DNA from: Bigelowiella natans nucleomorph | Taxonomy: Eukaryota; Protista; Cercozoa | DNA length: 32,000 nucleotides | Assembly: GCA_000002455.1 (NCBI GenBank) | Contig: DQ158857.1 | Span: forward strand, 102,145-134,144 | Direction of reading: 5' to 3' | In this document: positions 1,063 to 21,916 of the stretch, one piece after another | Layout of the letters: the number at the start of each line of letters is the position of its first letter | How positions within the stretch are numbered: the first letter of the stretch is position 1 | Position numbers and translations under genes: made by a program | Notes under the pieces: model-generated | Database searches by the model: none | The model's input: the letters and a program-made list of their open reading frames with translations, nothing else | Told to the model about the DNA's origin: nothing

Positions 1063-3762
1063 ATGATAATGAAAATAAAAAGTGTTTCAAAGCTAAATCT
1101 TCATGGAACAATAAATGAAAGATATATAAGAGCAAAAAATAAAAATATTCAGAAGAATATTAAATATAATCTAAAAAAAAATCATATTTCAATGCTTTGG
1201 AATAAAAACTATTCTATCGTAAATGACAGAAGTACCATATGCCATGTAACAATAGATCCTAGTAAATTCAGCGAAGATTTAACAAATATTTTAGCACTAG
1301 CACAAATGGAAGCTGCTGCTAGAAGTACTTTCAAAATCACAGGACCTTTTATACTACTTGGCATTTTAATGGCTCGTGGTAGCACAACAGGTTATGCTAT
1401 GCTCAAAACTTGGAAAGTAAATTACTTGAAGGCAAGAATAGAAGCCGATAAGATAAGATCAGATTTGACCAATCTATTTGGAGAGTTACCCGAAACATAT
1501 AGTTTTGATGATGAGGCTCATCGTATTCTGGATTATGCAGAAAGATACGCAAACTTTTTCGGATTGGTACAAATTGAAACTATACATGTTGTCATGGCAA
1601 TGTTTAGATATAAAAGAAGTAACGCATATAGAATTATTGAAACAATAACACCAAATTTTGAATCATTGGAAGAAATAGTAGATAATATAAGGCCTAACAT
1701 CTCTTTAAAAAGAGACAGTAAAGGATTTATTTATCAAGCACAAAAATCAGAACTACCTGAATTAGACCCTGAATCTGAAGATATTATTGATACATTTGGA
1801 GTAGATTTAACCGAGAAAGCCGAATTCGGCGAAGGAGATCCAGTTATAGGAAGAAAAAAAGAAATTGATAGATTGATCAGAGTCCTTGCAAGAAAGTCTA
1901 AAAATAATCCTTGCTTAGTTGGTGACCCAGGAGTAGGTAAAACAGCCATTGCCGAAGGTCTTGCTTATAGAATATGGAATGACGAAGTTCCAGAATTTTT
2001 AAAAAATAAAAGGATCATCAATTTGGAGCTAACTAAAATTGTTGCTGGATCCAAATATCGAGGTGATTTCGAGTCCAGAATTTTATCAATAATAGAAATG
2101 GCTAGATTCGAAGATAGTGTTATTTTATTTATTGACGAAATCCATACAATAATGGGGGCCGGATCCAGTGAAGGTACATTAGATGCAGCTAATATGCTCA
2201 AACCTCCTCTTTCTAGAGGTGAAATATCATTGATCGGTGCAACTACTGAAGAGGAATTTAGAAAATATATAAAAGCTGATGGAGCGCTAGAAAGAAGATT
2301 CCAAGCTGTTAAAGTACCAGAACCTACAATATCAGAAGCCATTCAAATACTACACGGAATTAAAAAAAATTTCGGAAATTATCATGGAGTAGTTTATAGT
2401 GATGAAGCAATAGAAGCTTGTGTAAAATTTTCTAAACAATACATCTCCGATAAATTTTTACCTGATAAAGCCATTGATTTATTGGATGAATCAGGAGCAT
2501 TCGTAAAAATGAAAGAAGGATATGCAATAAAAAATATAGAAGATTATACATTCTTAATAAAATCATACAGGGAAACTAAGAAAGCTGTGGTTGAAAAAGA
2601 TATTCAAAAGTTAAAAGCAACACTCATTACAGAGATCAAAGCACTAAAAAAAGTCGAACAGGTACTACAAAAAATAAAACTTAGCCAAGAAGCAATAAAA
2701 AGAGATATAAACAATATCAGAGTAGTAAAAGTTCCTGACGTAGAGACTGTGATCGAAGAAATGACCGGAGTTAAAATAAAAGAAGTATCCAAATCAGAAT
2801 CTGAAAATCTATTAAACCTTGAGTCAATCTTACATAAAAGCGTAATTGGACAAGAGGAGGCTGTTACAGCTGTATCCAAAGCAATGAGAAAATCAAGAGT
2901 TGGATTAAGAGATCCTAAAAGACCTATTGCTTCTTTCATTTTTGCTGGCCCTACTGGGGTAGGAAAAACAGAACTTGCCAAAACTCTATCTAGAGTTTAC
3001 TTTGATTCTGAAGATGCAATGATTCGATTTGATATGAGTGATTTTGCTGAAAAGCATAATGTATCTAAATTAATAGGATCACCTCCGGGCTATATAGGGT
3101 ATTCAGACGGCGGCCAATTGACAGAAGCTGTTAGAAAAACTCCTCACTCATTGGTACTTTTCGATGAACTAGAAAAGGCTCATCCAGATGTTTATCTACC
3201 TTTATTACAAGTTCTTGATGATGGTAGGTTAGCAGATTCTAAAGGAAAAATAGTAGATTTTAAAAATACAATAATTATACTAACATCAAATTTAGGTGCT
3301 AAAGAAGTAGAAGCTCGAAGAAAAGCGATCAAACAGTCATCTGAAACTGAGGATATATCAGAAAAAGAATCTTTTTCAATTTACAATGCCGCTATAGCAG
3401 AGTACTTTAGGCCAGAATTTCTAAACAGAATCGACGAAATTATTATATTTAAACGTTTAACTCAATCACAAGTCTATGAAATTTTTGCTATATTCATGAA
3501 CTCTGTAAAACATCGAGCAGCAAAGCTCGGTATTACAATCCAAGAAACAGAAAGATTGAGACAACTAGTTACAGAAGCAGGATATACGCCAGCTTTTGGT
3601 GCTAGACCTCTAAAAAGAACTATATCAAGATTGATAGAAAGTCCATTATCAGAAATGATTTTATCAAATGAAGTTGTTTCAGGAGATACTGTTTTATTAG
3701 ATTACTACAATAAGAAAGTAACTTTCATAAAAGTCGATAAGAGCATTCTTAAATTTGATTAA
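1063..3762 (+). CDS. clpC: ClpC/Hsp93 AAA+ chaperone, probably plastid-targeted; no intron needed
   Basis: 899-aa ORF with two AAA modules (GDPGVGKT/LFIDEIH; GPTGVGKT/LFDELEK), KLIGSPPGYIGY, GARPLKR, a short middle coiled coil and a K/N-rich N-terminal extension resembling a transit peptide. Confidence 0.92.
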   Translation: MIMKIKSVSKLNLHGTINERYIRAKNKNIQKNIKYNLKKNHISMLWNKNYSIVNDRSTICHVTIDPSKFSEDLTNILALAQMEAAARSTFKITGPFILLGILMARGSTTGYAMLKTWKVNYLKARIEADKIRSDLTNLFGELPETYSFDDEAHRILDYAERYANFFGLVQIETIHVVMAMFRYKRSNAYRIIETITPNFESLEEIVDNIRPNISLKRDSKGFIYQAQKSELPELDPESEDIIDTFGVDLTEKAEFGEGDPVIGRKKEIDRLIRVLARKSKNNPCLVGDPGVGKTAIAEGLAYRIWNDEVPEFLKNKRIINLELTKIVAGSKYRGDFESRILSIIEMARFEDSVILFIDEIHTIMGAGSSEGTLDAANMLKPPLSRGEISLIGATTEEEFRKYIKADGALERRFQAVKVPEPTISEAIQILHGIKKNFGNYHGVVYSDEAIEACVKFSKQYISDKFLPDKAIDLLDESGAFVKMKEGYAIKNIEDYTFLIKSYRETKKAVVEKDIQKLKATLITEIKALKKVEQVLQKIKLSQEAIKRDINNIRVVKVPDVETVIEEMTGVKIKEVSKSESENLLNLESILHKSVIGQEEAVTAVSKAMRKSRVGLRDPKRPIASFIFAGPTGVGKTELAKTLSRVYFDSEDAMIRFDMSDFAEKHNVSKLIGSPPGYIGYSDGGQLTEAVRKTPHSLVLFDELEKAHPDVYLPLLQVLDDGRLADSKGKIVDFKNTIIILTSNLGAKEVEARRKAIKQSSETEDISEKESFSIYNAAIAEYFRPEFLNRIDEIIIFKRLTQSQVYEIFAIFMNSVKHRAAKLGITIQETERLRQLVTEAGYTPAFGARPLKRTISRLIESPLSEMILSNEVVSGDTVLLDYYNKKVTFIKVDKSILKFD

Positions 3763-3842: not shown

Positions 3843-6200
3843 ATGGTTGACACTAAATCAGATCATATTAAAAAAGTACGATTCCTTCATAAAAAACTTC
3901 ACATTTATAAAGGCATTCCGAAATTTATACAATCATATAATTATTCTAAAAATAATTTTTCGAAACCAGAGCTTCATCGAAACAAAAGATATCAAGAAAT
4001 TTATAAGATATTAACATATCACAAAAATTGTCTTTCTCTATTAAGATTAAAAATGAAATATTTTCTAAAAAATAGTACTTTTAGTCAACAAATTTTTAGA
4101 TCAAGAAATTTAATTTTGAATGTCAATAATAACAAAAAAAAAGATGAAGAATGTAAGAACATACTTTCTGCTAACGATCTACCGGTAAAAAAAAATGAAA
4201 AAAATATAATTAAAGTTTAAAAAAGTATTAAAGATAATTAAAAATAGTGATATAATCTTAGTTATCGGAGAAACGGGTAGTGGTAAAACAACACAAATCC
4301 CACAAATAATTTACAAAAACTTTCAACACAAATTTAATAAGATTTTTTGTATGGAACCGCGTCGAATTGCAGCTATAAACGCAGCAACTAGAGTAGCAGA
4401 TGAAATGCATTTTATATTAGGTGACAAAGTAATTAAAGAAGAATAGATTGGATACAAAATTAGATATGAAAATATGACAAACAAGAATACAAACTTAAAA
4501 TTCGTTACAAATGGAATGTTCTTAAGAGAGTCAAGTATAGTCTCATACAATTTATTTAATATTTGGTATATTATAGATGAAGTACATGAAAGATCAATCG
4601 AAGTTGACATTATCTTAGGAATTACCAAATTTAAATATCAACAAGGTTGTAAAATTATCATAATGTCTGCAACTTTAGAAATTAATAAATTTTTGAGCTA
4701 CTTTAAATCCTTGACTTATATTCATATAAAAGGTATAATTTATCCTGTATTCATACAAGTTCACATAAAAATTACTTAGTGGATTAAAAAAACTAAAGAA
4801 GATGCTTTTACCATGATAATAAAAATAGTTTCAAAAATCTATCATATAAAAAAAAAAGGGCATCTTTTAATATTTTTATCGGGACAAGAAGAAATTGAGT
4901 TATTACGAAAAATTCTTCTCAACTATTTGTCCGAGGTAAAATAAAAAGTCAAAGAATAATATTAAGAATTTTATTTTACTTCCATTCTATACCCGAATTA
5001 GCCAATGTTATAAAAATATTGTTTTAAAAGATGTTAGCGACAATTTGCAAAAGTGCATTTTATCCACCAATATTGCTGAAACATCAATTACAATTAAAAA
5101 TGTTAGATTTGTCATAGATCTAGGTATACATAAAGCCAAACAATATTATCCTAATTTATTATCTTCTAGTTTACAGGTTTAATAAGAAATTAAAGCTAAA
5201 TGTCATTAGTAAGTCTTCTGCAATTCAACGAACAGGGAGAGCTGGCCGTACTCATGATGGAATTTGCTTTAGACTTTATACGAAAAGATTTTACCAGAAT
5301 ATAATGAAAATATCCCAGATTCCCGAAATAAAAAGACTGTCTTTAAACGAAGTAATCATAACAATTAAGGTTAATGTTTTTTTTAAAGAACTTAAAATTA
5401 AATAGTTTTCAATTTTTTGAAAATCCTAATTTACTTAATCTACAGAGCTCATTATATCATCTTTGGTTAATAGATCTATTAGATTCCAATGGAGATCTAA
5501 CGAAAGATGGACTATTCTCTATAGAATTAGGTATGCCTTCTGTTTTTTCTAAACTTATATTGAATTCCATCAGAATGAAATGTTCCGATAAAGTAATTTA
5601 ATATTTAATAGTGCTTAACTTTAATAGGAATTCTATCTAATTACTCTACAATAAACATAACAAAGTCTTTTCTTCTAAAAGAATTTCTTCACGAAAAGAA
5701 TCAATTTATATTGAGAGCAGAACTATTAATTAAAATGGAAGTTTTTTACAGATGGAAATTCTCTAATTTTTCAGTCAGCTGGGCTATAAAAAATGGCCAA
5801 GATTTAAAATCTTTGATGAATATTAGAAAAGTTTACTAAAAGTTATTAGATTCGAAAGCACCTAAAATACCAATTACTTAAATGTAATCTAAAACTTAAC
5901 ACTTCGATGTTTTATACTACAAGTTTGTTAAAATCCATAACTTCTATTTATTTCATGAATACATCCATTCTCGTAAAAGATAATATCTACATGACACTAA
6001 TAAGCGGTATTAGAGGATACTTCGACTCTTCAAAACAATCTATTCAAAAAGGATGTAAACCAAAATTATTATTATTCTGTGAACTACTAATAAATGATAG
6101 AATACGGTTCTTAAACACTATAGGAATAAAAATACATTGGATACTAAAATACGGGAATAAAGTATTCCGTACGAAACTTAACAATCAAAATAATTTATAA
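3843..6200 (+). CDS. DEAH-box RNA helicase (Prp2/16/22/43 family), 8 micro-introns
   Basis: Removing GT-AG introns 4215-4233, 4429-4446, 4759-4779, 4936-4954, 5177-5195, 5370-5388, 5593-5611 and 5831-5849 gives one frame with GETGSGKTTQIPQ, EPRRIAA, IDEVHER, MSAT, FLSGQEEIE, STNIAETSITI and QRTGRAGR. Confidence 0.92.
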
Positions 6201-6266
6201 TCATAAAAATATTAAGTAATAAATAAATATATTGCTTAGAAATAGTTTCTACTTAATATTCATTAT

Positions 6267-6847
6267 TCATAGGTTAAAATTAACAGGCTTCATAAAAATC
6301 GAATTTAAAAGAATTATATCGAAAGATGTTCCGTTGTTAGACGAGTATTCGTAATAGTTTTTCAGCTTACCAATCCCCAAAAATATAGAATTAAAATTAA
6401 AAATAAAAAAAATGTTAATACTTCTGTCAAAATAGGTTAGTAATGAAACGTATTTTGAGTTAATACGATTTCTAAAAATATCTTTCTTAGAAAAACAGTT
6501 TTTTAACCATAAACGATTTACAGAGAATTTTGATAGAAAATCTAAAAAAAAGAAATTAATTTTCACTTTAACTTTTGAAAAACCATAATACAGTTTTCCT
6601 AGCTTTATTCCTAGAGATAAAATTTTTGAATGAGAAAACTTTTCTTTCTTAAATTACTTCATTTATTTCAGACAATATAACTTTATTGAAAATAAAAATA
6701 TCGTTTTTTATTATTCTTAAAGTGTTCGATTTAAAAAGCAATTTAAAAAAAGTATTTAATCTTAAGCCTAATATTTTATAAAGATTTTTTACTATTAAAT
6801 GAATTTCCTATTTTTTAATACAATACTAATTTCGTCAATACTCTCAT
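6267..6847 (-). CDS. nip7: 60S ribosome biogenesis protein Nip7-like (PUA domain), 2 introns
   Basis: Introns 6808-6826 and 6639-6657 (19 nt each) join MRVLTKLE..., LSLGIKLGK, LDFLSKFSVNRLWLK and FLGIG. These resemble Nip7 MRPLTEEE, VSLGTCFGK, LDYLAPYAKYKVWIK and PLGFG. Confidence 0.7.
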
Positions 6848-6879
6848 TAATTTCTTGCTACTCAGTTAACAAATTTACA

Positions 6880-7132
6880 ATGACTACTGCTCACAGATCG
6901 ACTATTATTCCCAGTCAAAATAGTAGCTCTTCTAATATATTTACTGATTTTTATATAAAAAAGAGTCTGAGTAGAAAAGATAAAATTATAAATAAAAGAC
7001 TTATATACAAGTAAAATATTAAAATAAAGAAAGCTTAAATATCATGTAATCAATACCAAAAATATCCGTACTTTTCAGGGACATATTGCTGTAGATAGTG
7101 CTTTTAAATTTGAACAAGTATACGTAAAATAA
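6880..7132 (+). CDS. cwc15: Miniature spliceosomal Cwc15-like protein, 77 aa, 1 intron
   Basis: Starts MTTAHRST (Cwc15 MTTA[AH]RPT). The 19-nt intron 7011-7029 restores the frame, which ends KFEQVYVK* (Cwc15 C-terminus KFMEKYIK). Confidence 0.65.
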
Positions 7133-7515
7133 AAGTTTAATAACCTAAAGAAACGTCTGAGACTAGAGCTATTAAAGGTTATGGCAAGAAAAAATAAAAG
7201 TATTAATAACTAAAATCTACTCTTGAATTTGTGTCTTCATTAGATTTTATAATTAAACTAAATTTTTCACGATCTACTCTTAATTACTTAGAATTGTTTC
7301 AATATTTATAATAATCAGTTTGGCTATCGCTAATATTTATAAAAGAACCTATCATAATTAATTATAATTTAATAATCAATTTTTAATATCTATTAATAAG
7401 ATCATTGGTTCCCACTTTACTATTTTATCAATAATCTAAGAATATACTATGCAAGTTAATCAAATAAATTTACTCCTTAAAAAATTAATTACTTTAATAC
7501 AATAATTAATGCTTT

Positions 7516-10168
7516 ATGGTAACATATATAAAAGAAAACACTTCATCAAAGGTACTCTTTAAATTTAATAGCTTAAATCATTAAATAATCTACTATTCTT
7601 TATTGATAAAGTAGAAAAATAAACAATTAGATTAAAAAAAACTTAGTATATTATAAAGCTTTCAAAAATATACTTTTTTTAATTTCAGGAAACTTGATTA
7701 TTACACTTGAGCTATCACAGTCATCTTTAAGCTATACACAATCTCTAGAGTTAATAAAAATAAATAAACTAAATATTAAAAAACATCACAAGAATTTTAA
7801 TTATATCGTAGTTCAAAGCAAAATTGACTCAATTGTATATTATGTAAATACAGACCATGCAGTATTATTAGAATACAATAGAAAAAGTATTTTTTTAAAA
7901 AAAAAATCATCTGCACTGCTGTTTCTAAAAAAAAAAAAATAACCTTTTATTTGGGTTTGCAAAAGTTTCAGTTAATCAGTTTTGACCCAACAAATGGAAA
8001 AATCAATTATAGTATAAATACGAAGTAATCCATTTGAGATTAGTTCTGAAATTATAGAAATTTCGCATTCTAATAACTATAATCTGCTTATATTATTAAC
8101 AAGGAAAGGAATTTTCATAATAAATGAAAAATTTAAGGAGACTCAAGAAATTTTTACCATAAGACATCGGCATCTAGACAATAGTATTTTTCATAAAAAA
8201 CTATCGTTAAACAAAATAAAAGTTCTACAAAAAAGTATTTTATTTTTATGAAGAATATAATATTTATAATTTGTGTATAGGAACTAATCTAGGGCATCTC
8301 GTTATCCTATACTTAGATAACTTTACGAATAAAACTATTATAAAAAAATGCTTTTACGAATCCATTAGAACTTTAGATATTTTAAACAACAAATTATATT
8401 TAACTATTAGCTTCAATTTAACTTATAAAATATGGAAATTAATATCATATAGTACTGATATTAAACTAATTTCCAATATTATAAATCCTAACCGAGGCTT
8501 AATAATGACAAGGTTCAATAAACTTTTTAGATTTCTCAATAAAGAAAACACATTGATAGTTTTAGATTATAAAAACAAACTTAGAATATTAAAAGATTAT
8601 AATTTTAATTTCTGTCAATTTAAACTCCAGGTATCATAAAAATATTAAAGATTAAGTATTTCAAAGTTAGAAAAAATAAATTATTAAAAAAAATGATGCG
8701 CATTGTAATAAGTAGTTGTGCATTATGCTACTCTACGCAACATAATTATCACCGCGTCTCTTTCTTATTTGGAAAGATTCCTATACTATTTTTTATTAAT
8801 TCGTCATACAATGATGTTTTTTTTACCCTCTTAAAACAAAGTAAAACAATAATCTCAAAAAAAAAACTATTTTATGGATGTTTACATTATTCAAAATCAA
8901 GAAACTTTTTATTTCTCTGTAATAATAACCTAGAAATTTTAAAGTTTTATTATGTGAAAAAGATTTAACTGCCAGTCTTATACTTTCAGTGGTAGATTTA
9001 TATCAAAAAATATATTAAATAAACTGAAAAATACAACTCTTCCGATTTCTTTAGAATCTGACCATAGAGATCAGTCCTTATACAGTATTCACTTCGATAA
9101 AATGATAATAATATGGAATATCGAAAATTATGAATGCAGGATTATTTTAAAAGTTTTTATCGTTTAACCAGATTAATAGTTCATTAACTTTTGGATCAAT
9201 TACTACGAGACGAAAATCGCTAAATATAGCACTTGAAAATACTAGCGTTCTCGAATTAAAACAATATAAAATGCTCTTATTTAATTTCAGTGACATTGAT
9301 ATAATTATTGGAATCAAATACTTATCATCTATGAAGATTATTGTAATCTTTTCGATAGATGAAACAGTGAAAATTTACTCTTTTCGAGGTTTCTTTTTAC
9401 TAGTAAATCAATTTTAAAGTAGGAGTTATACAAAGAAGTAAATTTTTACAATAACTTTTTCTCATGGCACACGGATGTGATAAAAAAATGTTTTATCAAG
9501 AAAGTTACCCACGTATGTAACAATAATTTCGAATCGGTAAAGAAAAAAAATTACCAAAACATATCATTCATATCGAAAGAAAATAAAAAGCATTATTCTT
9601 TTTTTGAAAACTATCTCATGAAATTGTTTCAGTTCAGAGTCTATAAAAGTGATTTTCTTAATTTATTCAATAAAAGATTTATTAAAAGTATTTTAATCTT
9701 TAAAGTAAACCTAAATAGCAATGAAAGTGTATTTAATTTGTTATTTGGAATTCATAGCGCTAAAAAATTTATTAACGAAAAAAGATTTTTGTATATCAAT
9801 CAAAAAAATATAGATTATACGAAAAAGCTTCTATCAATTCTAATTATAAATAAAAATATTTTCATCAAAAATTATATTAAAGAAATATATTCGATGATTG
9901 TATTATTTTAAGTTAATAGAAAGTTAGTCAAAGCGTGACTATAAAAAAAATTAAACTTTTTCTAATTTACACTTTATTTAACATCAAGAAAAACTCAAAC
10001 TTAATTGAAATAATGATACTTTTTATGTCAATAAATTGTTATATTAAAACAATTATTAAAAATAATACTTTAATAACATACATTTGGAATACTGTAAAAA
10101 AGCTATTAAACGAGAAAATACATTTTGTTATAGGAAAACTATTATTATTAAAATGTACTATAAATTAA
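7516..10168 (+). CDS. Large multi-intron WD40-repeat protein, possibly Utp13/TBL3-like
   Basis: ATG 7516 with introns 7552-7571 and 7611-7630 leads into ORF 7694; intron 9900-9919 joins the last two ORFs. WD-like ends: TYKIWKL, FDKMIIIWNIENYEC, SIDETVKIYS. C-terminal YIWNT recalls the Utp13 WNT motif. Internal exons were not all resolved. Confidence 0.55.
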
Positions 10169-10197
10169 TTAAATAAATTATTCAAATATAGTTAAGT

Positions 10198-10629
10198 ATG
10201 AATGATCTTAATTCAAAAATACCAGGTTATTTGAAAAAAATCCCCTGGTACTCAAAGCAAGATAATAATAAAAATACACACATTTTTAAGAACTTTTATA
10301 AAACATATACTTTACCCAAATACGTAGGTACAATAAGAGAAAAATCAACAAATGATCAAAAAAATAAGAATATCAAAATAACACCCTTTTTTAATCTATT
10401 AAACCATTATACTTTTAAAAAAACCAAAGTTTATAAATCAAATAAACAACTTATAGCTTTCAGATCTTTTTTAAATGTAAAATCTCTCAATAATAATCAT
10501 TATAAAATGAGAAAATTTATCCATACCACTCCTTTAGAGAAAAAAAAAAATAAGTTACAATACAACAAAACACCACTTTTATTCATCAAGAAACTACGTT
10601 TCCTCTATGCACCTATACATAATAGCTAA
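10198..10629 (+). CDS. slu7: Truncated pre-mRNA splicing factor Slu7-like
   Basis: N-terminal DLNSKIPGYLKKIPWY matches the Slu7 motif DINPHIPQYISSxPWY; only 143 aa. Confidence 0.6.
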   Translation: MNDLNSKIPGYLKKIPWYSKQDNNKNTHIFKNFYKTYTLPKYVGTIREKSTNDQKNKNIKITPFFNLLNHYTFKKTKVYKSNKQLIAFRSFLNVKSLNNNHYKMRKFIHTTPLEKKKNKLQYNKTPLLFIKKLRFLYAPIHNS

Positions 10630-10700
10630 AAAAATCACTTTAAACAAACTTTTGAATTTAATGCTATGAACATAATTGATAAATTAAGAGTTATATCACG

Positions 10701-10772
10701 GTGGATATGGTTTAATGGATAAAACATCACATTGTGGTTGTGAAAATCCGGGTTCGATTCCCAGTATCCACA
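10701..10772 (+). tRNA. trnH: tRNA-His (GTG)
   Basis: Acceptor GTGGATA/TATCCAC plus discriminator A, anticodon arm TCACA-TTGTGGT-TGTGA, T-loop GTTCGATTC. Confidence 0.93.
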
Positions 10773-10808
10773 CTAAAACTGTTGTATAACTTAAAACCAT
10801 TAGATAAT

Positions 10809-11183
10809 ATGAATAAAAGAAAAGGTGCTGGTAATCCAAATGAAATTGTTCTTTTTATGTGTGGAGCTATGGTAATTAAAAATAAATTAGTTCTCATTTA
10901 TTTTAACAAGAATCAATGATAAATCTTCAATTAATACATCTAGAAGCTATTCTACAAAGTAAACAAAAGAAAAAAAGTCGCGATACCTTAATTAATTTAT
11001 GCAATGAAGCAATGATTCAAATACAAAGCTTATCTGGAGAACAGCCAAGCTCGACCGAAGTATACTTTTTCAATATAGTTTAATCTTAAAAAAACTAATC
11101 TATCCATTGAAAAACAGTGGACCGATTCACTTTCATGGAAAAGGTACAAAAGCGTTATTATAGATGGAAACAACAAAGAGTAA
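10809..11183 (+). CDS. Hypothetical 105-aa protein with 3 micro-introns
   Basis: Three 19-nt GT-AG introns (10872-10890, 10959-10977, 11060-11078) give one ATG-to-TAA frame, MNKRKGAGNPNEIVLFMCGAMFSFIL...IIDGNNKE. Confidence 0.7.
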
Positions 11184-11247
11184 GTAATCCAGAATGGTAT
11201 GTTTAATATTAATGCTTTCCTTTTTAATTTTTTTTTGAATTAATTAA

Positions 11248-12339
11248 ATGATAAATAATTCTTGCCATAAAGCATCTAAAAGAAATATTGGATTAATGGA
11301 ATTACAAGTCTCTTTTTACTTGATAGAAATTAGGTATCTCAGATCTAGATATTCAAAAATTAATTGATAACGGTATTTTTACTATCAATTCATTAGCAAA
11401 AGCTTCTAAGAAAGAATTATATTCTATAAAAGGACTGAATGATCGTAAAGCTGAAAAAATTTTGTCTTTAGGTAAAGATATTGACAAAAGCTAAAAAAAG
11501 GGTTCCTGTAGGATTCTCAACACTAAAAAATTATTTAAAAACAAAGAAACAGCAATTTCACATTTCTACTCTTAATAAAACGATTGATAATTTATTAGAG
11601 GGTAATCTTTAAACATTTAGGCGGTATTGAATCATCATCAGTAACTGAAATTTTCGGCGAGAGTAAAACTGGAAAAACCCAATTTTGCCATATTCTATGC
11701 GTAAGTGCAATGGTATGGATAATTTACATAGGTTGATAACTATTCTTTTGTTCAAACTAAGAAAGTCATTTATATAGACACAGAAGGTAATTTTAGACCA
11801 GAAAGGCTAATCGAAATATCTGAAAAGTACAATTTAATAATTCAAGATTTAAAATAAATTTTGATTTTTTAATAAACAATGTCTTCTATGCTAGAGCCTT
11901 CAATACTGAGCATCAATTTCAATTATTAGTAGCAGCTGCATCCATAACTGCCTTTTCAAATGTGGCTCTAATAATAGTAGATAGTTGTACGGCACTATTG
12001 CGGACAGAATATGTCGGTCGAGGTGAACTGTTTTTACGTCAAACCTTACTTGGAAAATTTCTCAGAAACATACAAAGACTTGGCGAGGAATGCAATATTG
12101 CTATTTTGCTTACAAATCAGGTCGTAACCAGTAATCTCGATGGTATGACGTTTTCGGCTGCCTCAAACCTAAAACCTATTGGAGGACATATAATGGCTCA
12201 TTATACTAATACTAGAATATGGTTAAAGAAACGAACCAGTCAATATAATGTGATGAAAGTAATATCATCATCCAAATTAAGTGAGAAAGAGGTGAAATTT
12301 ATTATCCAAAATACTGGTTTGCGTGTTGTAAGTGAATGA
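11248..12339 (+). CDS. rad51: Rad51 (RecA-family) recombinase, 5 introns
   Basis: Introns 11308-11326, 11472-11490, 11602-11620, 11713-11731, 11827-11846. Motifs [69 protein letters not shown]. Alternative ATG at 11296. Confidence 0.88.
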
Positions 12340-12379
12340 TGATTATTTAACAAATTGATTAAGTACTAAAATTAGAAAT

Positions 12380-12670
12380 ATGTATAAAATTAAATATTAT
12401 ATCAAAAAACAAAAAATGATTAATAGAAAAAACGAAGCTTTATTGAAAAATAGTTCACAAAACGATAATTTAATAATTTCGATTAAAAAGAAAAAAAAAA
12501 CCAAGAATCTTAATTTATATTTTATAAAAAATAATTTTAAAAGAAATTTGAGAAAAAGTATAATAAACAATATTCTTGACAAAGATTTCATGTTATGCAA
12601 AGATTTCAATGATTTTGGTATTTGTTCTTATGGAAACACATGTAAATTCCTGCACTGCTCAGACCGATAA
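12380..12670 (+). CDS. cwc24: Cwc24/RNF113A-like CCCH zinc-finger splicing factor lacking the RING domain
   Basis: CKDFNDFGICSYGNTCKFLH is C-x8-C-x5-C-x3-H, close to Cwc24 [20 protein letters not shown]. The stop comes 4 residues later. Confidence 0.75.
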   Translation: MYKIKYYIKKQKMINRKNEALLKNSSQNDNLIISIKKKKKTKNLNLYFIKNNFKRNLRKSIINNILDKDFMLCKDFNDFGICSYGNTCKFLHCSDR

Positions 12671-12717
12671 AATTTCTAAATTGCTGATTACTGTTATACC
12701 TGTGATTAAAATTATCA

Positions 12718-13027
12718 ATGAAAAATTACATAAAAATTTGGATCGAAGGAGAGAATTACACAATTGGTAATATTTTAGAATTTTATATAAAGAAAAAGTA
12801 AAAATATATAAAAAGTATATTAATTGAAAATGTAAGTTTCGAAATGCTACATCCACTAAAGAATATTCTATGCGCTTCAATTAAAACTAAATGTTAGCAT
12901 TATTCAAAAAGGTGACATCAATATAACTTTAATTCTAATGAAAATATTTAATTCCATTATAAGCGTGATAAGCAATATAGTAAGGGAGTTTTTAGAAAAT
13001 ATTATAACTAATAACAATTATAAGTAG
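12718..13027 (+). CDS. RNA polymerase subunit of the RPB11/AC19 family, 90 aa, 2 introns
   Basis: Introns 12798-12815 (18 nt) and 12893-12911 (19 nt). IEGENYTIGNIL and FEMLHPLKN match the family motifs EDHTLGN and YxxPHPL. RPB11 and AC19 cannot be separated by eye. Confidence 0.75.
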
Positions 13028-13035
13028 GTAATTAA

Positions 13036-16000
13036 ATGAATATTCTCAAAAACAATAGAGTACTACAATTATTAACAACATTCTTTAGAGGTAATAGCAT
13101 AATCAAACAACAAATTATATCCTTTAATGACTTTATTAGAAAAGAAAGTCAACACATAATTGACAAAATACCAAACTTAGTCATTCAAATATCTTATAAA
13201 AACTCGAATAAAATTGTGAATAGAATTCTCTTATTAAAACAACTTTATACGGAAAAACCAAGGATAATAAAAACCAGAGAACTATACAATTTAGTTGAAC
13301 CATCTTACGATGAAGGAGAATTAAATATTTCACCTAATAAGTCACGTTTAAGGAATATAACGTAACCCTTTCTTTTATAGTTATTCATCTAAAGTCAGAA
13401 TACAAGTATTCGATGAAATAACTGATAAGCATGATGCAAATTTGAAAAAAAAGGTCGTTAATAAGTCTAAAAAATTTATTTATATCGGAAAAGTTCTAAT
13501 AAATTGTTTAGTTTCCATGTATGATAAAATCAGATACTTGCTATCTTAATAATTTTTCAGAAATTAGTCTAGCTAGAAATGACGAATGCCCTTTTGACGA
13601 AGGTGGATATTTCATAATAAATGGAAATGAAAAAGTACTGGTTGCTCAAGAAAGGTTAGTAAAAAACAAAGTTTATATTTTTTCTAAAATATTTGATAAA
13701 AAGACCCGTGTAATGGCCCAATGTAGGTAACATTCTTTTTCAAAGATCATATGATTCAAGTCTTTATAATCAAGGTTATATGGTTTATCTGAAATTAGTA
13801 ACAGATAAGTCCAATAATCCAAATCAATGCTCTGAAATTACTGTAAAAATAGCTAGCTTAAGAGCAGAGATTCCTTTAGTGATCTTATTAAAATTTCTAG
13901 GCTTTAAAGTATCTTTAATCTTAATAGAATGATAAGGAAATTATTAATTCAATTTTTAAAAATAATTCTAATTCTAAAAAATTAAACATGCTGTATAACT
14001 CTTTCTTAGGAGTTACAAAGGTACAAACGATTAGTCACGCTTTAAGGTATATCGTTGATAGATCTTTTTCTAAAAGTAATAATAAAAAGCTTGACCCAGA
14101 AAAAACAGCCAGGTAGATATATTGCTCATAGGGAAATAATAGATAAAAAACTATTGCCTCATATGGGTACGTCAATAAATAGTCGGTTTAGAAAAGGACT
14201 TTTTATTTGTTACATGGCACATAGACTAATAAACACATTAAACGAAATTGAACAACCCGATGATAAAGATAGTTACAAAAATAAAAGAGTTGATATTTCT
14301 GGTCACTTATTTTCATCTCTATTTAATAATTTAATCAAACGATCTATTAAAGTTTCCCTTTTTCTAATAGGATGTAAAGAATCAATTATTGAAAAAGGTA
14401 AAAAAATCAGACGCGACTGAGTTAGAAGAGTTATTTTCTTCAAATATCCTAACGAATGGTTTTCGCTACTCTTTAGCTACAGGAAATTGGATTATTGATG
14501 GAATGCTTGATTATAAAACAGGTGTTTCACAAGTATTGAATAGGATGTCGTATTTATCCATGATTTCCCACTTGAGTAGACTGAATTCATCTTATACAAG
14601 CAACGGAAAGATACTAGATATAAGAAGAGTCCACACAAGTTACTGGGGTATTGTATGCCCTGTAGAAACCCCAGAAGGACAGACTTGTGGAATAGTAAAA
14701 AATTTTGCTTTTCTAGCACACGTAACAAATTCTCATCATATTCAAAAAAATATAATTCAATTTCTTAAGAAAATAATGATAAAAAACTCTTTTACTAAGC
14801 CGATGATTAAAACTAAAAAAGATAAACCTGATATTAGTATTTTTGTAAATGGTTCTTGGATAGGTAATACTTTCGAATACTTTTCATTAATGAAATACCT
14901 AATCACTCTACGTCGGCAAGAAATTATTCCATTCGATGTAAGTATAGTTTTTAATGAAAAAAATAAAAGAATTTTTATATGGAGCGATCCAGGAAGAATA
15001 AAAAGACCTCTATTTGTTTTGAAGAATTCTAATTCTTTTTTTAACCACTCTATTGAAAAAATAGCAAAAAAGATAAAAGATAATTTCCACAGATGGTACT
15101 TTTATATAAAGAATTCTATTGTGGAATATCTCGATACCGAAGAAATAGAAAATATTGTTATAAAGCTTAATTATTATAATAATACCGAGTTAATCGTTGA
15201 TCAAACCCAAATTTATAAAAAAATGATAAATTTTTCCGAAATTCATGCATCTTCTATCCTTGGAGTCAGTGCTTCACAGGTTCCTTTTTCTCAACACAAC
15301 CAATCACCCAGAAATACGTATCAGAGCTCTATGGGTAAGCAAGCAATAGGAATAAATTATAGTAACTTTCAATTGAGGTATGATACACAAATCAACATCT
15401 TAGAATCTAATCAAAGACCATTAGTTTTTACGATACAAAAATTATGTCTACGAGGACAAGAAATGCCCTCGGGTATCAACACTATAATGGCTATATTAAG
15501 TTATTCTGGTTTTAATCAAGAAGATTCTTTAATAATTAATCATTCAAGCGTTGAAAGAGGGTTGTTTCGTACAATTATTTATAAGACTTTTGCAGAAAGA
15601 GAGAACACAAACGTGAATGGCATTATTGAAAAAATAGAGTTAGGTATTTAATTTATTAAATAGAATCAAAGTCTTCTAACTTATTTGGACTTGACATAGA
15701 CGGAACTAGAAAAATAGAAACATTAGTAAACGGAGATGATGTTCTCATTTCAAAAACAATTAAACTTACCGGTAAAGGTGATACAAAAGTTAATACCATT
15801 CATAGCGACTTGAAATTACCATTGAACAGTCAAGGAGTAGTTGACTCCATAATGTATAGTCTTGATGAGGGTGGTTATAAAATCATAAAAGTTAGAGTAA
15901 TTCAATTTTTTATAGATTAGATCCATTAGAGAACCTGTCATTGGTGATAAATTTTCTAGTTTACATGGTCAAAAAGGGATTATCGGGTATTCCTATCGTC

Positions 16001-16688
16001 AAAGTTTACTTCCAACGACTGCTACGTCAGTAACCCCTGATTTAATAATGAATCCACATGCTATACCCTCGAGAATGACTATAGGTCATATGATAGAAAT
16101 GCTTATGTCGAAGGTATCCTCCCATAGTGGTAAATTAGGAGATGCTACTGCGTTTAGTGAGGGCAATATTGGTAAAATTATAGGGCATTTAAGCAAGTAT
16201 TTAGATTATTAAAAAGGTTTGGTATTCATCATTTTGGATTAGAAAAAATGATAAGTGGATTTAATGGAGACATTCTCCAAAAATCAATCCTAGTCGGTCC
16301 TATTTATTATCAAAGACTAAAACATATGGTAGTCGATAAGTTTTTCAGTAGATCTAGAGGACCATACGAAATATTAACCAGACAACCAGTAGAGGGTAAA
16401 ACCCGAGAGGGCGGTTTACGATTCGGTGAGATGGAAAGAGATTGCGTTTTAAGTCACGGATCATCTTTGTTTTTAAAAGAAAGACTAATGGACGAATCAG
16501 ATAAATTTCGAGTACATATATGTGAAAAAAGTGGCCTATTCTGTCCAGCTAATTTAAAAACCCAAACCTTTTGGAGTACCATTTATCACAGCAAATCTAT
16601 TTGTCAAATTTTTATTCCATATGCTTGTAAGCTTTTGTTTCAGGAATTAATAGCTATGTGCATAGCACCACGACTGGTTGTTAAATAA
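13036..16688 (+). CDS. rpb2: RNA polymerase II second-largest subunit, multi-intron
   Basis: ECPFDEGGYFIINGNEKVLVAQER, GVSQVLNR, CPVETPEGQTCGIVKN, HNQSPRNTYQSSMGKQA, GDKFSSLHGQKG, NPHAIPSRMTIG, GGLRFGEMERD and PYACKLLFQELIAM. Exons are separated by ~18-21 nt GT-AG introns. Confidence 0.95.
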
Positions 16689-16734
16689 TTAATCTAATAA
16701 GGTTATAACAATTGAAAATATTTGACCTAAATTA

Positions 16735-18121
16735 ATGTTCAAGTCTCTAAGAAGCGGTATTTGGAAAAACACAGAAGTAAGAAAATCATCTATAGGACCA
16801 AATTTTAAAAGCAGCTGTAATGAAATACGGTCTAAATCAATGGGATAGAATATCTTCGCTATTAATTAATAAAACCGCCAAACAATGTAAAAGTAGATGG
16901 TTTTTTTACTTAAATCCCAAGATAAATCGAAAAGGTTGGACATTTGACGAAGACGAAAGGTTAATATATCTTGCGTTTATTTTGCCATCGCAGTGGAATA
17001 CTATTGCACCTTTGATTGGTAGAACAACAGATCAGTGCTTCGATAGATTCCAAAAACTAATGTAAGAAAAAAATTATAGTAATATCAAAACAAATAACAC
17101 TGTTACAAAGTCCATTAATTTAGACCCAAGAGAATCAATTTTAAAAGATTTTAATACTAACCTAGAAACCAAGATTGCCGTCAAGGACAACATAATCAAT
17201 GATTACGAAATGCAAAATATATTAGTCGAAGCTAGAGCTCGTTTAGCTAATACTAAAGGTACACTTTTAAGTCCTAGGAAAGAAGGCTATCAGAAAAGCC
17301 AAAAGTCTAAACAATTATTTTTCAAACTTCATCCAAGCAGAAAAAGTATCTTCAAGTTTACTAAGTGTAAAAGCTTCTGATACTAGAAGTAAAACCTTAT
17401 TTACTTACTATGATAATTTACCCAACAAAAATCAAAAAATTAATTTACGGATAAAGTTCGCATTAATAAAATAAGGCAATTGATAAAAGCAACTTACAAA
17501 TCAAGACCAAGAAATACTCGAAATATTAAAAAACTTAACAAAAATAGTAATTTAATAAATATATTGATGTCCATTGATTCTAGTAATATTACTAATCTCT
17601 CAACTAATAAACTAAGATGCTTTTCAAATATTAATAGGAAATCAAATCTTCAACTTCACGCATTACCATCAACTAAATTTGTAAACATTACTTCTTCAAA
17701 ATACCGTCAATTCACAATGAACGGAAACATCAGTTTGTTTCAAAGAAAAAAAAGTTTACTGGTAAAAAAACCTTTCCCGATTAACAAAGTAGTACAAAAG
17801 AGTTTAAAAAACATGGATTTTTCACTCAGAATTCGAAAAAATAATATTATTTTACGAAAATTAGAAAAATTTCCTTTTTTTATAAGGTTGCAAAATTATT
17901 TTAATAAAACCTATCATTGCAACAAATATTATGATAAAATATCTATTCAAAGACAGGAAGCTCTTCATCAGAACGTTAACCAAACAGTTACTCGGTTAAT
18001 AAATGCTTTTTCTCATGATGAGGTATCTAGTAATAACCAAACTACATACTCAATATCATTAAATAAAGAACTACATCGAAGGAACTTGAAATCGCTTAAC
18101 ACGTTAAATAAAAAAAAATAG
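16735..18121 (+). CDS. cdc5: Myb-domain splicing factor Cdc5/Cef1
   Basis: GIWKNTE|DQILKAAVMKYGLNQWDRISSLL (intron 16777-16795), KTAKQCKSRW, PSQWNTIAPLIGRT, NLETK, EARARLANTKG|KKAIRK. The C-terminal half is divergent. Confidence 0.9.
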
Positions 18122-18479
18122 GGAACTTTTTACAATTGTAATTGTAAGAAATTTATTTTCCACTTTATTATTTAGCATCTTACGAATAAAAAATAATATA
18201 GAACATAAGACTTTTCACTCTTTTTACGAAGTTTTTTATCCATTTTTAAAAAACCAAATAACTTTTAAAATTCAAAGGTTCGTTAAATTACTTTTCTTAT
18301 TTAATACTGTTTCCAGACTATCAAATTTAGAAATACACAAAATTAATAAATTTAGCAAGTATTTTAATCAATATTATATAAATTATATTGAAAATAAAAA
18401 TTATGATTTGTATAAATCATAATTGTTCTTCCTTTGCTCTTAATTAAAATAACTTAATCAATTTATGATAAAGAAACAA

Positions 18480-18810
18480 TTAATCAATTCTTAGAGATTT
18501 GTTTTCCGTTTTTAAAAATTTTATCAAAAGTCTTTTATAAAATAACCTTACTTTTGTTTAACTATTTTATGATGTATTTCCTTACCATAGATCCTAGATA
18601 ATCGGGGTTTCTTATTACTCGTCTATAAATGAAAAATAAACCGGTATGTCTTTATTCGTATATTTGCACTTGTTAGAGGTTCTTAGCTTTTTTATATATT
18701 TTGCTACATACTTTCCACCTAAAACTGATCAAAATACTTGGACTCTTTTTTATAATAAATTTATTACTATTCGTTTTGTACGTTTTTCTTTTTTTTAAAG
18801 TTATTCTCAT
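18480..18810 (-). CDS. rpl34: 60S ribosomal protein L34 (eL34), 90 aa, 3 introns
   Basis: Introns 18719-18737, 18623-18641, 18532-18551. MRITLKKRKTYKTNSNK...KSPSGKYVAKYIKK...LSRIYG resembles eL34 RLTYRRRLSYNTASNK...TPG...VSRAYG. Absent from the ORF track. Confidence 0.8.
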
Positions 18811-18855
18811 TAAATCAAAAGTAGTTTAAAAGTTACCATATCCGTTTAGTATATA

Positions 18856-19484
18856 ATGGAAGAAACCATCAACTTAATCAAAACAAATACTAAAACCATG
18901 AAAGGCGGAGCCTTCCCAGAATGCCACTTAATTCAAAACTTATTTATCAAATTCTTTGTGTTAAATAATAGAACTCATTCCCACATAGTATCTCGAAGTT
19001 TTAACTTAAAAAATAGATAAAAGTATCGAGTATAAAATAAAACAGTTATACAATAATAGACTTTTACTAAAGGAAACCAAAATTATGATTAATAAAAATT
19101 TAGCAAATAATTTTGGTAATCTTCACATGGATAAAAAATTCCAAAAGTATATAAAATTTACTCATTGTGTATAAAAATTATTAACAGGGATCTACTCGCA
19201 TCATCAAGTTAATCTCAAAGCAAAAAGATGTTTTACATTATTTTCAAAAAGATAAAATAAAAAAACACTTATTGTATTCAATGTCACAACAAACCAACCA
19301 GAAGAATAAAGTAGAGAATAAAAAAAAATCATTGGCTATTCCCAAGGCCATATCAAATTGGAAAAACCCAAGAGGTTTTAGTATTCCATTACATCATCGA
19401 AACAATGCATTGAACGAAGTAAAAATAAATTTAAACCAAAAATTCATATATCTTTCCAACGTTATTGATTTATTAGATAAATAA
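18856..19484 (+). CDS. prp45: Prp45/SNW1 (SKIP) splicing factor, shortened (~196 aa), 2 introns
   Basis: GGAFPECHLIQ, YIKFT...RIIKLISKQKD and IPKAISNWKNPRGFSIPL are SNW1 signatures. Confidence 0.88.
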
Positions 19485-19494
19485 TAAATGATTA

Positions 19495-19626
19495 GCAAGG
19501 CCGAATTCCTTAATTGGTAAAGCCTTAGTAAAAATTGAGACGAGATTCTTTGAATCTCATAGCAACGGTTAAGTTGCTAAGAACAGATACTACACTTGAT
19601 CTTAGCCAAAAGGCCGAGATAGGTAG
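19495..19626 (-). ncRNA. U2: U2 spliceosomal snRNA, shortened
   Basis: The minus strand reads TCTCGGCCTTTTGGCTAAGATCAAGTGTAGTATCTGTTCTT (conserved U2 5' half with the branch-recognition GTAGTA). Then stem IIa TAGCAAC/GTTGCTA, stem IIb GAGATTC/GAATCTC, Sm-like AATTTTTA and one 3' stem. Ends are approximate. Confidence 0.95.
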
Positions 19627-19712: not shown

Positions 19713-20049
19713 ATGTCTATGAAAGACAAGAAAAATATATCGTTAAAAAGTAACAAAGATAAAAGAAGAAAAGGTTCTTCTACAGTAATTAGATAGATTC
19801 AACAAGTCTTCTTTTAAAAATACTTTAAATATTCCACTATTTTTACGATCTATGAAACAAACAGCTAAGTATTCTAAAACCTACAAATCATCCCACTCTT
19901 TTCCATCTTGTTTTTTTCAAATTGCTAAAAAGAAATTTAATGGAGTAAAAATTATAAAAAACTTACTTTCATTCAAAGTTAACTATAATCGCAAAAATAG
20001 AAACAAGAACTCTTTAAATAAAAAAGTAATAGTCTGTTATAAAGATTAA
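19713..20049 (+). CDS. Basic 105-aa protein, possibly Fcf2-like rRNA processing factor, 1 intron
   Basis: The 19-nt intron 19774-19792 joins ATG 19713 to ORF 19852. FPSCFFQIA and NRKNRNKNSL weakly recall Fcf2 FPKYFQVG and TKKERKxTL. Confidence 0.5.
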
Positions 20050-20079
20050 TTTTAAATATTTTAGCACTTATTTAAGTTC

Positions 20080-20523
20080 TTAAAATATAAAATCAGAACT
20101 AATATTGAAATCATAAAAAATTATTTCATTATAAAAAGACTGCAATTCAACGTTCAAAAAATTAGTTGTGATAATTTCTAGATTCTCCTCATGTGGCCAT
20201 GTTTGACGATTATAGAAATTATGATCATAAAAAGTTGAAGAAAATAGCAGTGTCTCATTTCTTTCTTGTAAAATATTTTGTTTAACAAATTCCTCATTAA
20301 ATTGCTTAATTTTGTTTTTTTTACTAATAATATATTTTGTAAGAAACAGTTCCTCAGGTAGCTTACATTTCTTTGTTTTTAAATAAAGTTTTATAAATTT
20401 ATGTTTATCGTTATTTAAATTATAGCTGCTATTTTCCAGCTTTTTAAAAAAGAATGTTGTATTTTTTTTTTGAATTGGTGAGGCAAGATTTGGATTCTTA
20501 GGGCATTGTTTTATTTTTAACAT
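20080..20523 (-). CDS. Hypothetical protein, 147 aa
   Basis: Uninterrupted ATG-TAA ORF that fills the gap between its neighbours; no confident motif. Confidence 0.6.
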   Translation of the reverse strand: MLKIKQCPKNPNLASPIQKKNTTFFFKKLENSSYNLNNDKHKFIKLYLKTKKCKLPEELFLTKYIISKKNKIKQFNEEFVKQNILQERNETLLFSSTFYDHNFYNRQTWPHEENLEIITTNFLNVELQSFYNEIIFYDFNISSDFIF

Positions 20524-20576
20524 TAATTTTCTACTAAATTATAATTAGTTTATAGTAATATCTTTTGCCATCTTTC

Positions 20577-21857: not shown

Positions 21858-21916
21858 TTGATAAAATAATACTACATTTAAAGTTATTTTATTAAAGCAT
21901 TGCTTTTTGTTTTATT

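What the first reader, a model, noticed from the sequence alone, without database searches (positions are those of the whole stretch)
3843..19626. Cluster of miniaturised spliceosome components serving ~19-nt introns
Seen: within 16 kb lie a DEAH helicase, Cwc15-like (77 aa), Slu7-like (143 aa), Cwc24-like (96 aa), Cdc5, Prp45 (~196 aa) and a ~132-nt U2. Known: the usual orthologues are much longer. Inference: each keeps mainly the segment that contacts the catalytic core, so together they outline a minimal activated spliceosome for introns too short to hold U1 and U2 simultaneously.
Basis: partly seen in the sequence, partly recalled or inferred. Interest (0 to 1): 0.75.

Follow-up and report, generated by a model that had tools for sequence, protein, structure and literature searches.

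The report
Trimmed splicing factors in algal nucleomorph
This stretch of the well-studied shrunken second nucleus of an alga carries four shortened splicing-protein genes and a short U2 RNA of kinds already reported there, plus two orphan genes that are likely cut-down Cwc15 and Slu7, but their closeness on the chromosome is likely chance and a link between the trimming and the 19-base introns is untested.

Summary
The window is the end of a Bigelowiella natans nucleomorph chromosome. A Prp16-like helicase (734 aa), Cdc5 (530 aa), Prp45 (196 aa), Cwc24 (96 aa) and U2 are real, and these names are in published chlorarachniophyte lists; the 130-nt U2 lacking stem-loop IV is published. Two lengths were wrong: the Cwc15-like protein is 98 aa when fully spliced (77 aa retains intron 2), and the Slu7-like protein is 156 aa (143 aa comes from one extra A in the reference). 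Neither hits Pfam or PDB. Each rests on one N-terminal motif: a Slu7 profile ranks the ORF first of 851 segments (E 0.0017), and four yeast Cwc15 residues match in register. I found neither assignment in print. Cwc24, Prp45 and Cwc15-like keep RNA-core-contacting parts; Slu7-like keeps a peripheral anchor instead. The proteins act at different stages, seven non-splicing protein genes are interleaved, and the clustering is compatible with chance (P 0.04-0.5, depending on the genome-wide count). U1 is expressed in this organism, and other lineages decouple trimming from intron size. Verdict: a known reduced spliceosome with two probable new, motif-only members; 'minimal spliceosome for 19-nt introns' is not shown.

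The parts
3843..6200 (+). Prp16-like DEAH helicase, 734 aa, 8 introns of 18-21 nt; whole helicase core kept, about 420 N-terminal residues fewer than human PRP16
   Evidence: transcripts; human PRP16 352 bits, yeast Prp16 329, DHX16 326; NCBI: mRNA splicing factor; published intron lengths match
6267..6847 (-). nip7-like gene, about 180 aa, 2 introns (not a splicing gene; interleaved)
   Evidence: (pre-PUA_NIP7 E 0.0016, under the curated cut-off)
6880..7213 (+). Cwc15-like orphan (NCBI hypothetical protein BNATCHR2112), 98 aa; introns 7011-7029 and 7118-7135; 77 aa (stop at 7132) if intron 2 is retained
   Evidence: identity rests on T2, T3, H5, R6 matching yeast Cwc15 residues named in a preprint
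7516..10168 (+). long unidentified gene, about 818 aa by model, WD-repeat-like by eye; interleaved
   Evidence: model; only weak beta-propeller hits
10198..10669 (+). Slu7-like orphan, no intron, 156 aa in transcript-derived proteins; as written in the window it stops at 10629 (143 aa) because of the A-run at 10540-10550
10701..10772 (+). tRNA (anticodon GTG read by eye, His); interleaved
10809..11206 (+). conserved orphan, about 106 aa, 4 introns; no family; interleaved
11248..12339 (+). rad51, 331 aa, 5 introns, near full length; interleaved control
12380..12670 (+). Cwc24, 96 aa, no intron; ends 4 residues after the CCCH finger, no RING domain
   Evidence: (yeast Cwc24 103-166, E 4.8e-5)
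12718..13027 (+). rpb11, about 90 aa, 2 introns; interleaved
13036..16688 (+). rpb2, 1159 aa, 9 introns, near full length; interleaved control
16735..18422 (+). Cdc5, 530 aa, 5 introns (19, 18, 19, 20, 19 nt); Myb repeats conserved, C-terminal part divergent
   Evidence: best hit Chlamydomonas Cdc5L, 833 aa; a published gene with the same five intron lengths, matched by order and lengths
18480..18810 (-). rpl34-like gene, 90 aa, 3 introns; interleaved
   Evidence: L34e E 0.0024 on exon 1, under the curated cut-off
18856..19484 (+). Prp45/SKIP, 196 aa, introns 18998-19016 and 19169-19187; keeps SNWKN, ends near yeast residue 213 / human 294
   Evidence: (SKIP_SNW E 7e-13)
19497..19626 (-). U2 snRNA, about 130 nt, branch-recognition GUAGUA at position 34, Sm site at 91, no stem-loop IV; ends 12 nt from the prp45 stop
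   Evidence: published length 130 nt (PMC6461891)

Best explanation
These genes encode shortened parts of the already known U2-type spliceosome of the Bigelowiella nucleomorph, likely trimmed by general genome reduction down to their short anchoring motifs, and two orphan genes here are likely motif-only remnants of Cwc15 and Slu7. Shown: the genes, their spliced lengths and 18-21-nt GT-AG introns; the domains kept and lost. Inferred from yeast and human work: Cwc24's zinc finger caps the 5' splice-site GU during activation; Prp45 (SNWKN) and the Cdc5 Myb repeats brace U2/U6 and Prp8; after Prp2 action the Cwc15-like N-terminal tip threads between U2 and U6; the Prp16 core drives the C-to-C* change; the Slu7-like N-terminal motif docks on Cwc22 and Prp8 to steady the exon-ligation state. 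They would act in turn, together with the many other splicing proteins and all five snRNAs encoded elsewhere in the genome. Their neighbourhood is likely an accident of a genome in which about one gene in seven to twelve is a splicing gene.
For: Transcript contigs lack 28 of 28 introns compared (10 in the same organism; 18 in a relative). Cwc24 ends match yeast deletion data (ZF essential, RING dispensable). Prp45 ends beyond the viable yeast truncation 1-169. Slu7 profile from 61 real Slu7 ORFs ranks ORF 10198 first of 851 segments (E 0.0017, next 2.5), 0 of 5000 shuffles reach its score, and the motif is the best-kept part between the two orthologues (19 of 20 residues versus 54 of the other 136 columns). 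Cwc15-like matches T2, T3, H5, R6 in register (chance about 3e-4 over 115 orphans). End-whittling is described as general for nucleomorph proteins (PMC3514955). U2 lacks stem-loop IV also in Guillardia with 42-52-nt introns. Stentor, with 15-16-nt introns, keeps U1 proteins and only slightly shorter factors. Permutation P for the run of genes is 0.19-0.53 for 36-46 splicing genes.
Against: Splicing proteins here are cut far more than their globular neighbours (Prp45 0.29-0.52 and Cwc24 0.28-0.37 of PDB orthologues, against near-full Rpb2 and Rad51), and folded domains (RING, zinc knuckle) are gone, so the loss is selective. With only 26 splicing genes the clustering P is 0.037. Published U1 and U5 are also unusually small and were suggested to have co-evolved with the introns. 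Cwc15-like lacks P7, Q8, G14 and any Trp, and no relative of it outside this species was found. The Slu7 motif test is partly circular: the training sequences were collected with a pattern written after seeing the ORF; scaled to the whole genome and to the many families one could try, the profile E-value alone is not significant.
Confidence: 0.62

Rival explanations
1. The trimming is an adaptation to 18-21-nt introns: parts that bridge long distances or would clash on a tiny lariat were removed, leaving a compact machine in which U1 and U2 load one after the other.
For: Disproportionate and domain-level loss; Slu7 is dispensable in yeast when branch-to-3'SS distance is under about nine nucleotides, as is likely in a 19-nt intron, and most of it is gone; Prp45 lost the part that contacts SF3b and RES; no U1-specific protein is recognisable by name in the published gene list; splicing is efficient despite no visible branch point.
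Against: The Slu7 piece kept is the one needed for long distances; U1 is expressed with an intact 5' end; Cyanidioschyzon lost U1, Prp45 and Slu7 although 18 of its 38 introns have 20 or more nucleotides between branch point and 3'SS; Stentor's shorter introns go with milder trimming.
Confidence: 0.2
2. The Cwc15-like and Slu7-like ORFs are decaying or unrelated orphans; the motifs are chance look-alikes or relics with no role in splicing.
For: No hit in Pfam, NCBIfam, PDB, ESM Atlas or 1.84 billion representatives beyond self and one close relative; blocks of Slu7 more conserved than the kept motif are absent; orphans arising from degraded genes are documented in these genomes.
Against: Motifs sit at the right place (N-terminus) and in register; the Slu7 motif is nearly invariant between two species whose remaining sequence is about 40% identical; 109 of 118 metagenome matches to the pattern look like Slu7 and 5 of 5 tested carry PF11708; both genes are transcribed and the Cwc15-like one is spliced.
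Confidence: 0.13
3. The genes form a selected, co-regulated splicing cluster.
For: 6 of 13 protein genes plus U2; order slu7-like to rpb2 is kept in a relative; transcript contigs run across genes; P 0.037 if only 26 splicing genes exist.
Against: Seven unrelated protein genes and a tRNA are interleaved, two on the other strand; the relative is close (80% DNA identity); syntenic blocks between chlorarachniophytes average about 6 genes; P 0.39-0.53 with the later gene list.
Confidence: 0.05

Closest known systems
Chlorarachniophyte nucleomorph spliceosome (B. natans, L. oceanica; PMC4035089 supplement 1, PMC6461891, PMC6009652)
   Same: Same genome; cwc24, prp45, prp16 and cdc5 are listed; 130-nt U2 without stem-loop IV, short U1 and U5, 18-21-nt introns and efficient splicing are published.
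   Different: cwc15 and slu7 are not among the 43 listed names; the Cwc15-like gene is a 'hypothetical protein' in NCBI; the mapping of kept segments onto yeast deletion and structure data was not found in the papers searched.
Cwc15 / CWC15 (Pfam Cwf_Cwc_15)
   Same: Starts M-T-T-x-H-R; T2, T3 and R6 contact U6 and U2 in yeast.
   Different: 98 aa (yeast about 175, recalled); P7, Q8, G14 and the Prp8-binding Trp are missing; no Pfam hit.
Slu7 (PF11708)
   Same: N-terminal N-x2-IP-x-Y-x4-PWY motif followed by a conserved His.
   Different: 153-156 aa against 377-595 aa for the five Slu7 ORFs tested; no zinc knuckle, no RDRW block, no PF11708 domain.
Cwc24 / RNF113A
   Same: CCCH finger with the Cwc24-type flank.
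   Different: No RING; 96 aa against 259-343.
Reduced spliceosomes of Cyanidioschyzon merolae and Stentor coeruleus (PMC10158995, PMC9505925)
   Same: Loss or trimming of peripheral parts around a kept catalytic core; steric ideas for tiny introns were already proposed for Stentor.
   Different: C. merolae lacks U1, Prp45 and Slu7 altogether; in Stentor Cwc15 and Slu7 were not detected; here they appear to survive as motifs.

Membership tests
Prp16 / spliceosomal DEAH helicases | RecA1-RecA2 plus C-terminal domains, closest to Prp16 | tested here: met
   residues 105-727 align to human PRP16 523-1152; 352 bits versus 326 for DHX16 and 316 for DHX8; best-hit ranking only, no tree was built
Cdc5/Cef1 | N-terminal tandem Myb repeats closest to Cdc5 | tested here: met
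Cdc5/Cef1 | Recognisable C-terminal (Prp19-associated) region | tested here: inconclusive
   no informative Pfam or NCBIfam hit on the later exons; about 300 divergent residues are present
Prp45/SKIP | SKIP/SNW domain with SNWKN | tested here: met
Prp45/SKIP | C-terminal helix and tail contacting Prp8 RH, SF3b, RES, Prp22 | tested here: not met
   protein ends near yeast 213 / human 294; U2 gene follows 12 nt after the stop
Cwc24/RNF113 | CCCH zinc finger with Cwc24-type flank | tested here: met
   generic CCCH proteins score higher on the finger alone, yeast Cwc24 gives the longest match (query 24-95)
Cwc24/RNF113 | RING domain | tested here: not met
   stop 4 residues after the finger in window, transcript and relative
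Cwc15 | Conserved N-terminus (T2, T3, H5, R6, P7, Q8, G14) | tested here: inconclusive
   4 of 7 residues named in bioRxiv 10.64898/2026.03.20.713263 match in register
Cwc15 | Pfam Cwf_Cwc_15 domain and conserved C-terminal Trp | tested here: not met
   the 98-aa protein has no Trp
Slu7 | N-terminal NPHIP..PWY motif | tested here: met
   (with the circularity caveat)
Slu7 | Zinc knuckle and PF11708 Prp18-interacting domain | tested here: not met
U2 snRNA | Rfam RF00004 match, branch-recognition sequence, Sm site | tested here: met
   (105.7 bits, cut-off 46)
U2 snRNA | Stem-loop IV | tested here: inconclusive
   Rfam extends to 19441, but that part is the antisense of the prp45 coding end and the 3' region folds no better than shuffles (z -1.25); published RNA-seq ends U2 at 130 nt
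Spliceosome component (any of the proteins) | Physical presence in nucleomorph spliceosomes | not testable with these tools
   needs purification and mass spectrometry or cryo-EM

The most novel reading that the evidence does not exclude
The nucleomorph spliceosome has been pared to motif-sized proteins fitted to 18-21-nt introns, many still hidden among the roughly 40% orphan genes; Cwc15 survives as little more than its U2/U6-inserting tip and Slu7 as a Cwc22/Prp8 anchor with a new job, giving a natural deletion map of a spliceosome that loads U1 and U2 in turn.
Probability: 0.2. Interest if true: 0.72.

Novelty: new variant of a known kind. Interest (0 to 1): 0.38.

Why it matters
How a spliceosome removes 18-21-nt introns with no visible branch point, at over 80-90% efficiency, is stated as open in the literature (PMC6009652). 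If the two orphans are Cwc15 and Slu7 remnants, the parts list is longer than published, short-motif searches of the other orphans should find more, and the kept segments give testable yeast truncations. The rest of the finding is already known, and the gene cluster and the U1/U2 claim add nothing demonstrated.

Tried and rejected
No whole genome was held, so gene density came from papers. Sequencing-run search: no RNA holder listed on record. Contigs of four runs laid on the protein-coding span showed no splice joints and little cover in three of them; splice evidence came from JGI/MMETSP contigs instead, and the ends of U2 were not examined with reads. In one search one low-depth run lacked bases in four A-runs; one of these would break the helicase frame and one the Cwc24 frame, both contradicted by transcripts, so that run was not trusted. 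A likeness of the 77-aa form's end to the Cwc15 C-terminus (recalled) was dropped because those residues lie in the retained intron. Motif scans of viral contigs gave 4 and 61 loci, none Slu7 or Cwc15. No real Cwc15 sequence could be obtained (one search found no held record), so no Cwc15 profile test was run. PDB searches with Slu7-like, Cwc15-like and Prp45 exon 1 gave nothing relevant. Homologue searches reached only this species and one close relative, so Lotharella, Amorphochlora and cryptophyte orthologues were not compared. No structure or complex prediction was run (the Atlas model of the Slu7-like relative has pTM 0.19). Three look-ups of earlier scan findings returned nothing.
Full report
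Setting. The window has an AT-rich gene-dense left part, an rDNA operon and a TCTAGGG telomere. Window proteins map to a 134,144-nt record, the length given for B. natans nucleomorph chromosome 2 in PMC4494063 Table 1, and cluster members are named Bigelowiella natans nucleomorph proteins. This genome, its 18-21-nt introns and its snRNAs are published.

Gene models and introns. I modelled genes by removing GT-AG introns of 18-21 nt. Two transcript contigs of the same organism lack all 8 helicase introns, one nip7 intron and Cwc15-like intron 1 (10 of 10 gaps). A contig of a relative at 80% DNA identity lacks 18 further introns at the same places; it retains two introns of the 106-aa orphan. 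The 28 introns are 19 nt (22), 20 nt (3), 18 nt (2) and 21 nt (1). A published per-intron table lists genes with the same intron lengths as my helicase, rpb2, cdc5, rpl34-like and prp45 models (matched by accession for the helicase, by order and lengths for the rest). In 3843-19626 lie 13 protein genes: six splicing or splicing-like (prp16-like, cwc15-like, slu7-like, cwc24, cdc5, prp45) and seven others (nip7-like, a long orphan, a 106-aa orphan, rad51, rpb11, rpb2, rpl34-like), plus a tRNA and U2.

Secure identities. The helicase's best hit is Prp16; the whole core is there and the N-terminal extension is about 104 residues against 522 in human. Cdc5 hits Chlamydomonas Cdc5L best and is 530 aa. 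Prp45 carries SKIP/SNW and ends near yeast residue 213. Cwc24 aligns to yeast residues 103-166 and stops; it is 96 aa in a transcript and in the relative. Against PDB orthologues the length ratios are 0.60-0.69 (Prp16), 0.64-0.90 (Cdc5), 0.29-0.52 (Prp45), 0.28-0.37 (Cwc24). cwc24, prp45, prp16 and cdc5 are all in the published gene list (PMC4035089 supplement 1; two species pooled, colour coding lost). U2 is published as 130 nt lacking stem-loop IV (PMC6461891); Rfam's longer match runs into the antisense of prp45 and that region folds like shuffles.

Cwc15-like. The NCBI protein (hypothetical BNATCHR2112) is 98 aa, a JGI protein shows the same spliced end, and the intron is 83% spliced; both forms occur in contigs (2 and 2). 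No library recognises it and no relative outside the species was found. The case is its start: yeast Cwc15 T2 and T3 bond U6, R6 stacks on U2, and H5, P7, Q8, G14 and W127 are named as conserved or mutated (bioRxiv 10.64898/2026.03.20.713263). The ORF has T2, T3, H5, R6 in register and lacks the other four. Four such matches at a protein start are expected about 3e-4 times among 115 orphans (a post hoc figure). I put the identity at about 0.75.

Slu7-like. The window gives 143 aa, but the relative's protein continues in another frame after an 11-A run (score 74 against 18-22 for the other frames) and a 156-aa protein in that frame is on 8 JGI contigs: the reference has one A too many. Standard searches fail. 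A degenerate scan for N-x2-IP-x-[YF]-[ILM]-x3-PWY gave 118 metagenome loci (part of the collection scanned); 106 begin NP[HY]IP, 62 have the zinc knuckle or RDRW block in the same ORF, 9 have neither, and 5 of 5 tested carry PF11708. A profile from the 61 distinct rows among those 62 ranks this ORF first of 851 six-frame segments (E 0.0017; the relative 0.006; next 2.5); none of 5000 shuffles reaches its 12.4 bits (best 8.4). The first 20 residues are 19 of 20 identical between the two species, the rest about 40%. Caveats: the training set was picked by a pattern written after seeing the ORF, and only about 27 residues align. The knuckle and three blocks more conserved than the kept motif are absent. 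Identity about 0.75; it fails full family membership and is best called a remnant.

Do the kept parts touch the core? For Cwc24 yes: the finger contacts intron positions +1 and +2 and is essential, the RING is dispensable (PMC6821175). For Cwc15-like yes, if the identity holds, though the tip is ordered only from B* on, not in Bact. For Prp45 partly: SNWKN (U2 and Prp8 contact) is kept, but the lost tail also binds Prp8 linker and RH domains, SF3b and RES (PMC5602110). For Slu7-like no: the N-terminus binds Cwc22 and the Prp8 linker and endonuclease domains, binding is called mostly peripheral, and this is the part needed for long branch-to-3'SS distances (bioRxiv 10.1101/212811; that the motif lies in that segment is my inference from its position). 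I could not count contacts on coordinates.

Is it caused by tiny introns? Not shown. Shortening from both ends is described for nucleomorph proteins in general (PMC3514955). Guillardia U2 also lacks stem-loop IV with 42-52-nt introns. Stentor has 15-16-nt introns, all snRNAs, the U1 core proteins and only slightly shorter factors (PMC9505925). C. merolae lost U1, Prp45 and Slu7 without tiny introns (PMC10158995). B. natans expresses U1 with an intact 5'SS-binding end. In favour: trimming is much deeper than for Rpb2 and Rad51 next door, Slu7 is dispensable for short branch-to-3'SS distances, no U1-specific protein name stands in the list, and co-evolution of a short U5 with the introns has been suggested.

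Clustering. With 43 listed names plus cdc5 and the two new ones (46 of 288), some run of 13 genes holds six with P 0.52-0.53; with 36, 0.19; with 26 (the older count of 24 plus two), 0.037. The later list is pooled over two species, so the true figure lies between; a cluster is not established.

Novelty. Searches for nucleomorph with Slu7 or Cwc15 and for chlorarachniophyte spliceosomal proteins returned no paper making these two assignments; the library omits most subscription papers. What I saw: passages of PMC4494063 (no supplement held, and its gene tables may bear on novelty and synteny), PMC3514955, PMC9505925, PMC10158995, PMC6821175, PMC11833078, PMC6679479, PMC12393901 and the two preprints (their supplements not seen); passages and one section each of PMC6461891, PMC6009652, PMC5602110 and PMC8022279; rows of supplements of PMC6009652 and PMC6461891; supplement 1 of PMC4035089 in full. 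Gilson 2006, Curtis 2012 and Slamovits and Keeling 2009 were not read and are known only through these papers. Reference lengths for Cwc15, Rpb2 and Rad51 and the starting motifs are recalled.

Verdict. A known reduced spliceosome; two probable new motif-only members, two corrected lengths and one reference error; cluster and U1/U2 mechanism unsupported. Interest 0.38.

Noticed in passing
window 10540-10550: An 11-A run appears one base too long in the reference, truncating the annotated Slu7-like protein from 156 to 143 aa.
   Followed up: yes
window 7516-10168 +: Long WD-repeat-like orphan, about 818 aa by my model; the published table seems to split it into two genes, one with an intron 0% spliced, and a low-depth run lacked one A at 7927, so a second A-run error is possible.
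   Followed up: partly
window 10809-11206 +; L001 881-1240: A 106-aa, 4-intron orphan with one hydrophobic stretch is far better conserved in the relative than the Slu7-like or Cwc24 proteins, yet has no family; the published list has an orf106 shared with L. oceanica (identity not checked).
   Followed up: partly
window 16777-16795: The first intron of the gene matching cdc5 is only about 11% spliced while its other four are 82-94%; regulation or read-through from rpb2 could explain it (the relative's rpb2 contig ends at the cdc5 start). The first intron of the rpl34-like gene is also listed at 11%.
   Followed up: no
introns across window 4215-16216: Position -4 from the 3' end is A in 21 of 27 transcript-supported introns (one of 28 dropped for an off-by-one coordinate), against about 45% elsewhere (P about 0.007 after correcting for 13 positions); a hint of an A-W-AG acceptor signal.
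   Followed up: partly
window 12718-13027 +: rpb11 (90 aa, 2 introns) has no slot in the original accession series between cwc24 and rpb2 though it is in the later gene list.
   Followed up: partly
window 7214-7515: About 300 nt without an ORF model on either strand, long for this genome and partly covered by a transcript contig; no Rfam match.
   Followed up: partly
window 19713-22653: Several unidentified ORFs with 19-nt intron candidates and a 213-aa Ran-like GTPase on the minus strand (name by eye).
   Followed up: no
window 23630-23914 +: A 94-aa ORF beside the rDNA that reads like the C-terminal end of an Hsp70/DnaK (recalled likeness).
   Followed up: no
window 1057-3762 +: Intron-free ClpC-type ATPase of about 900 aa directly upstream of the helicase.
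   Followed up: no
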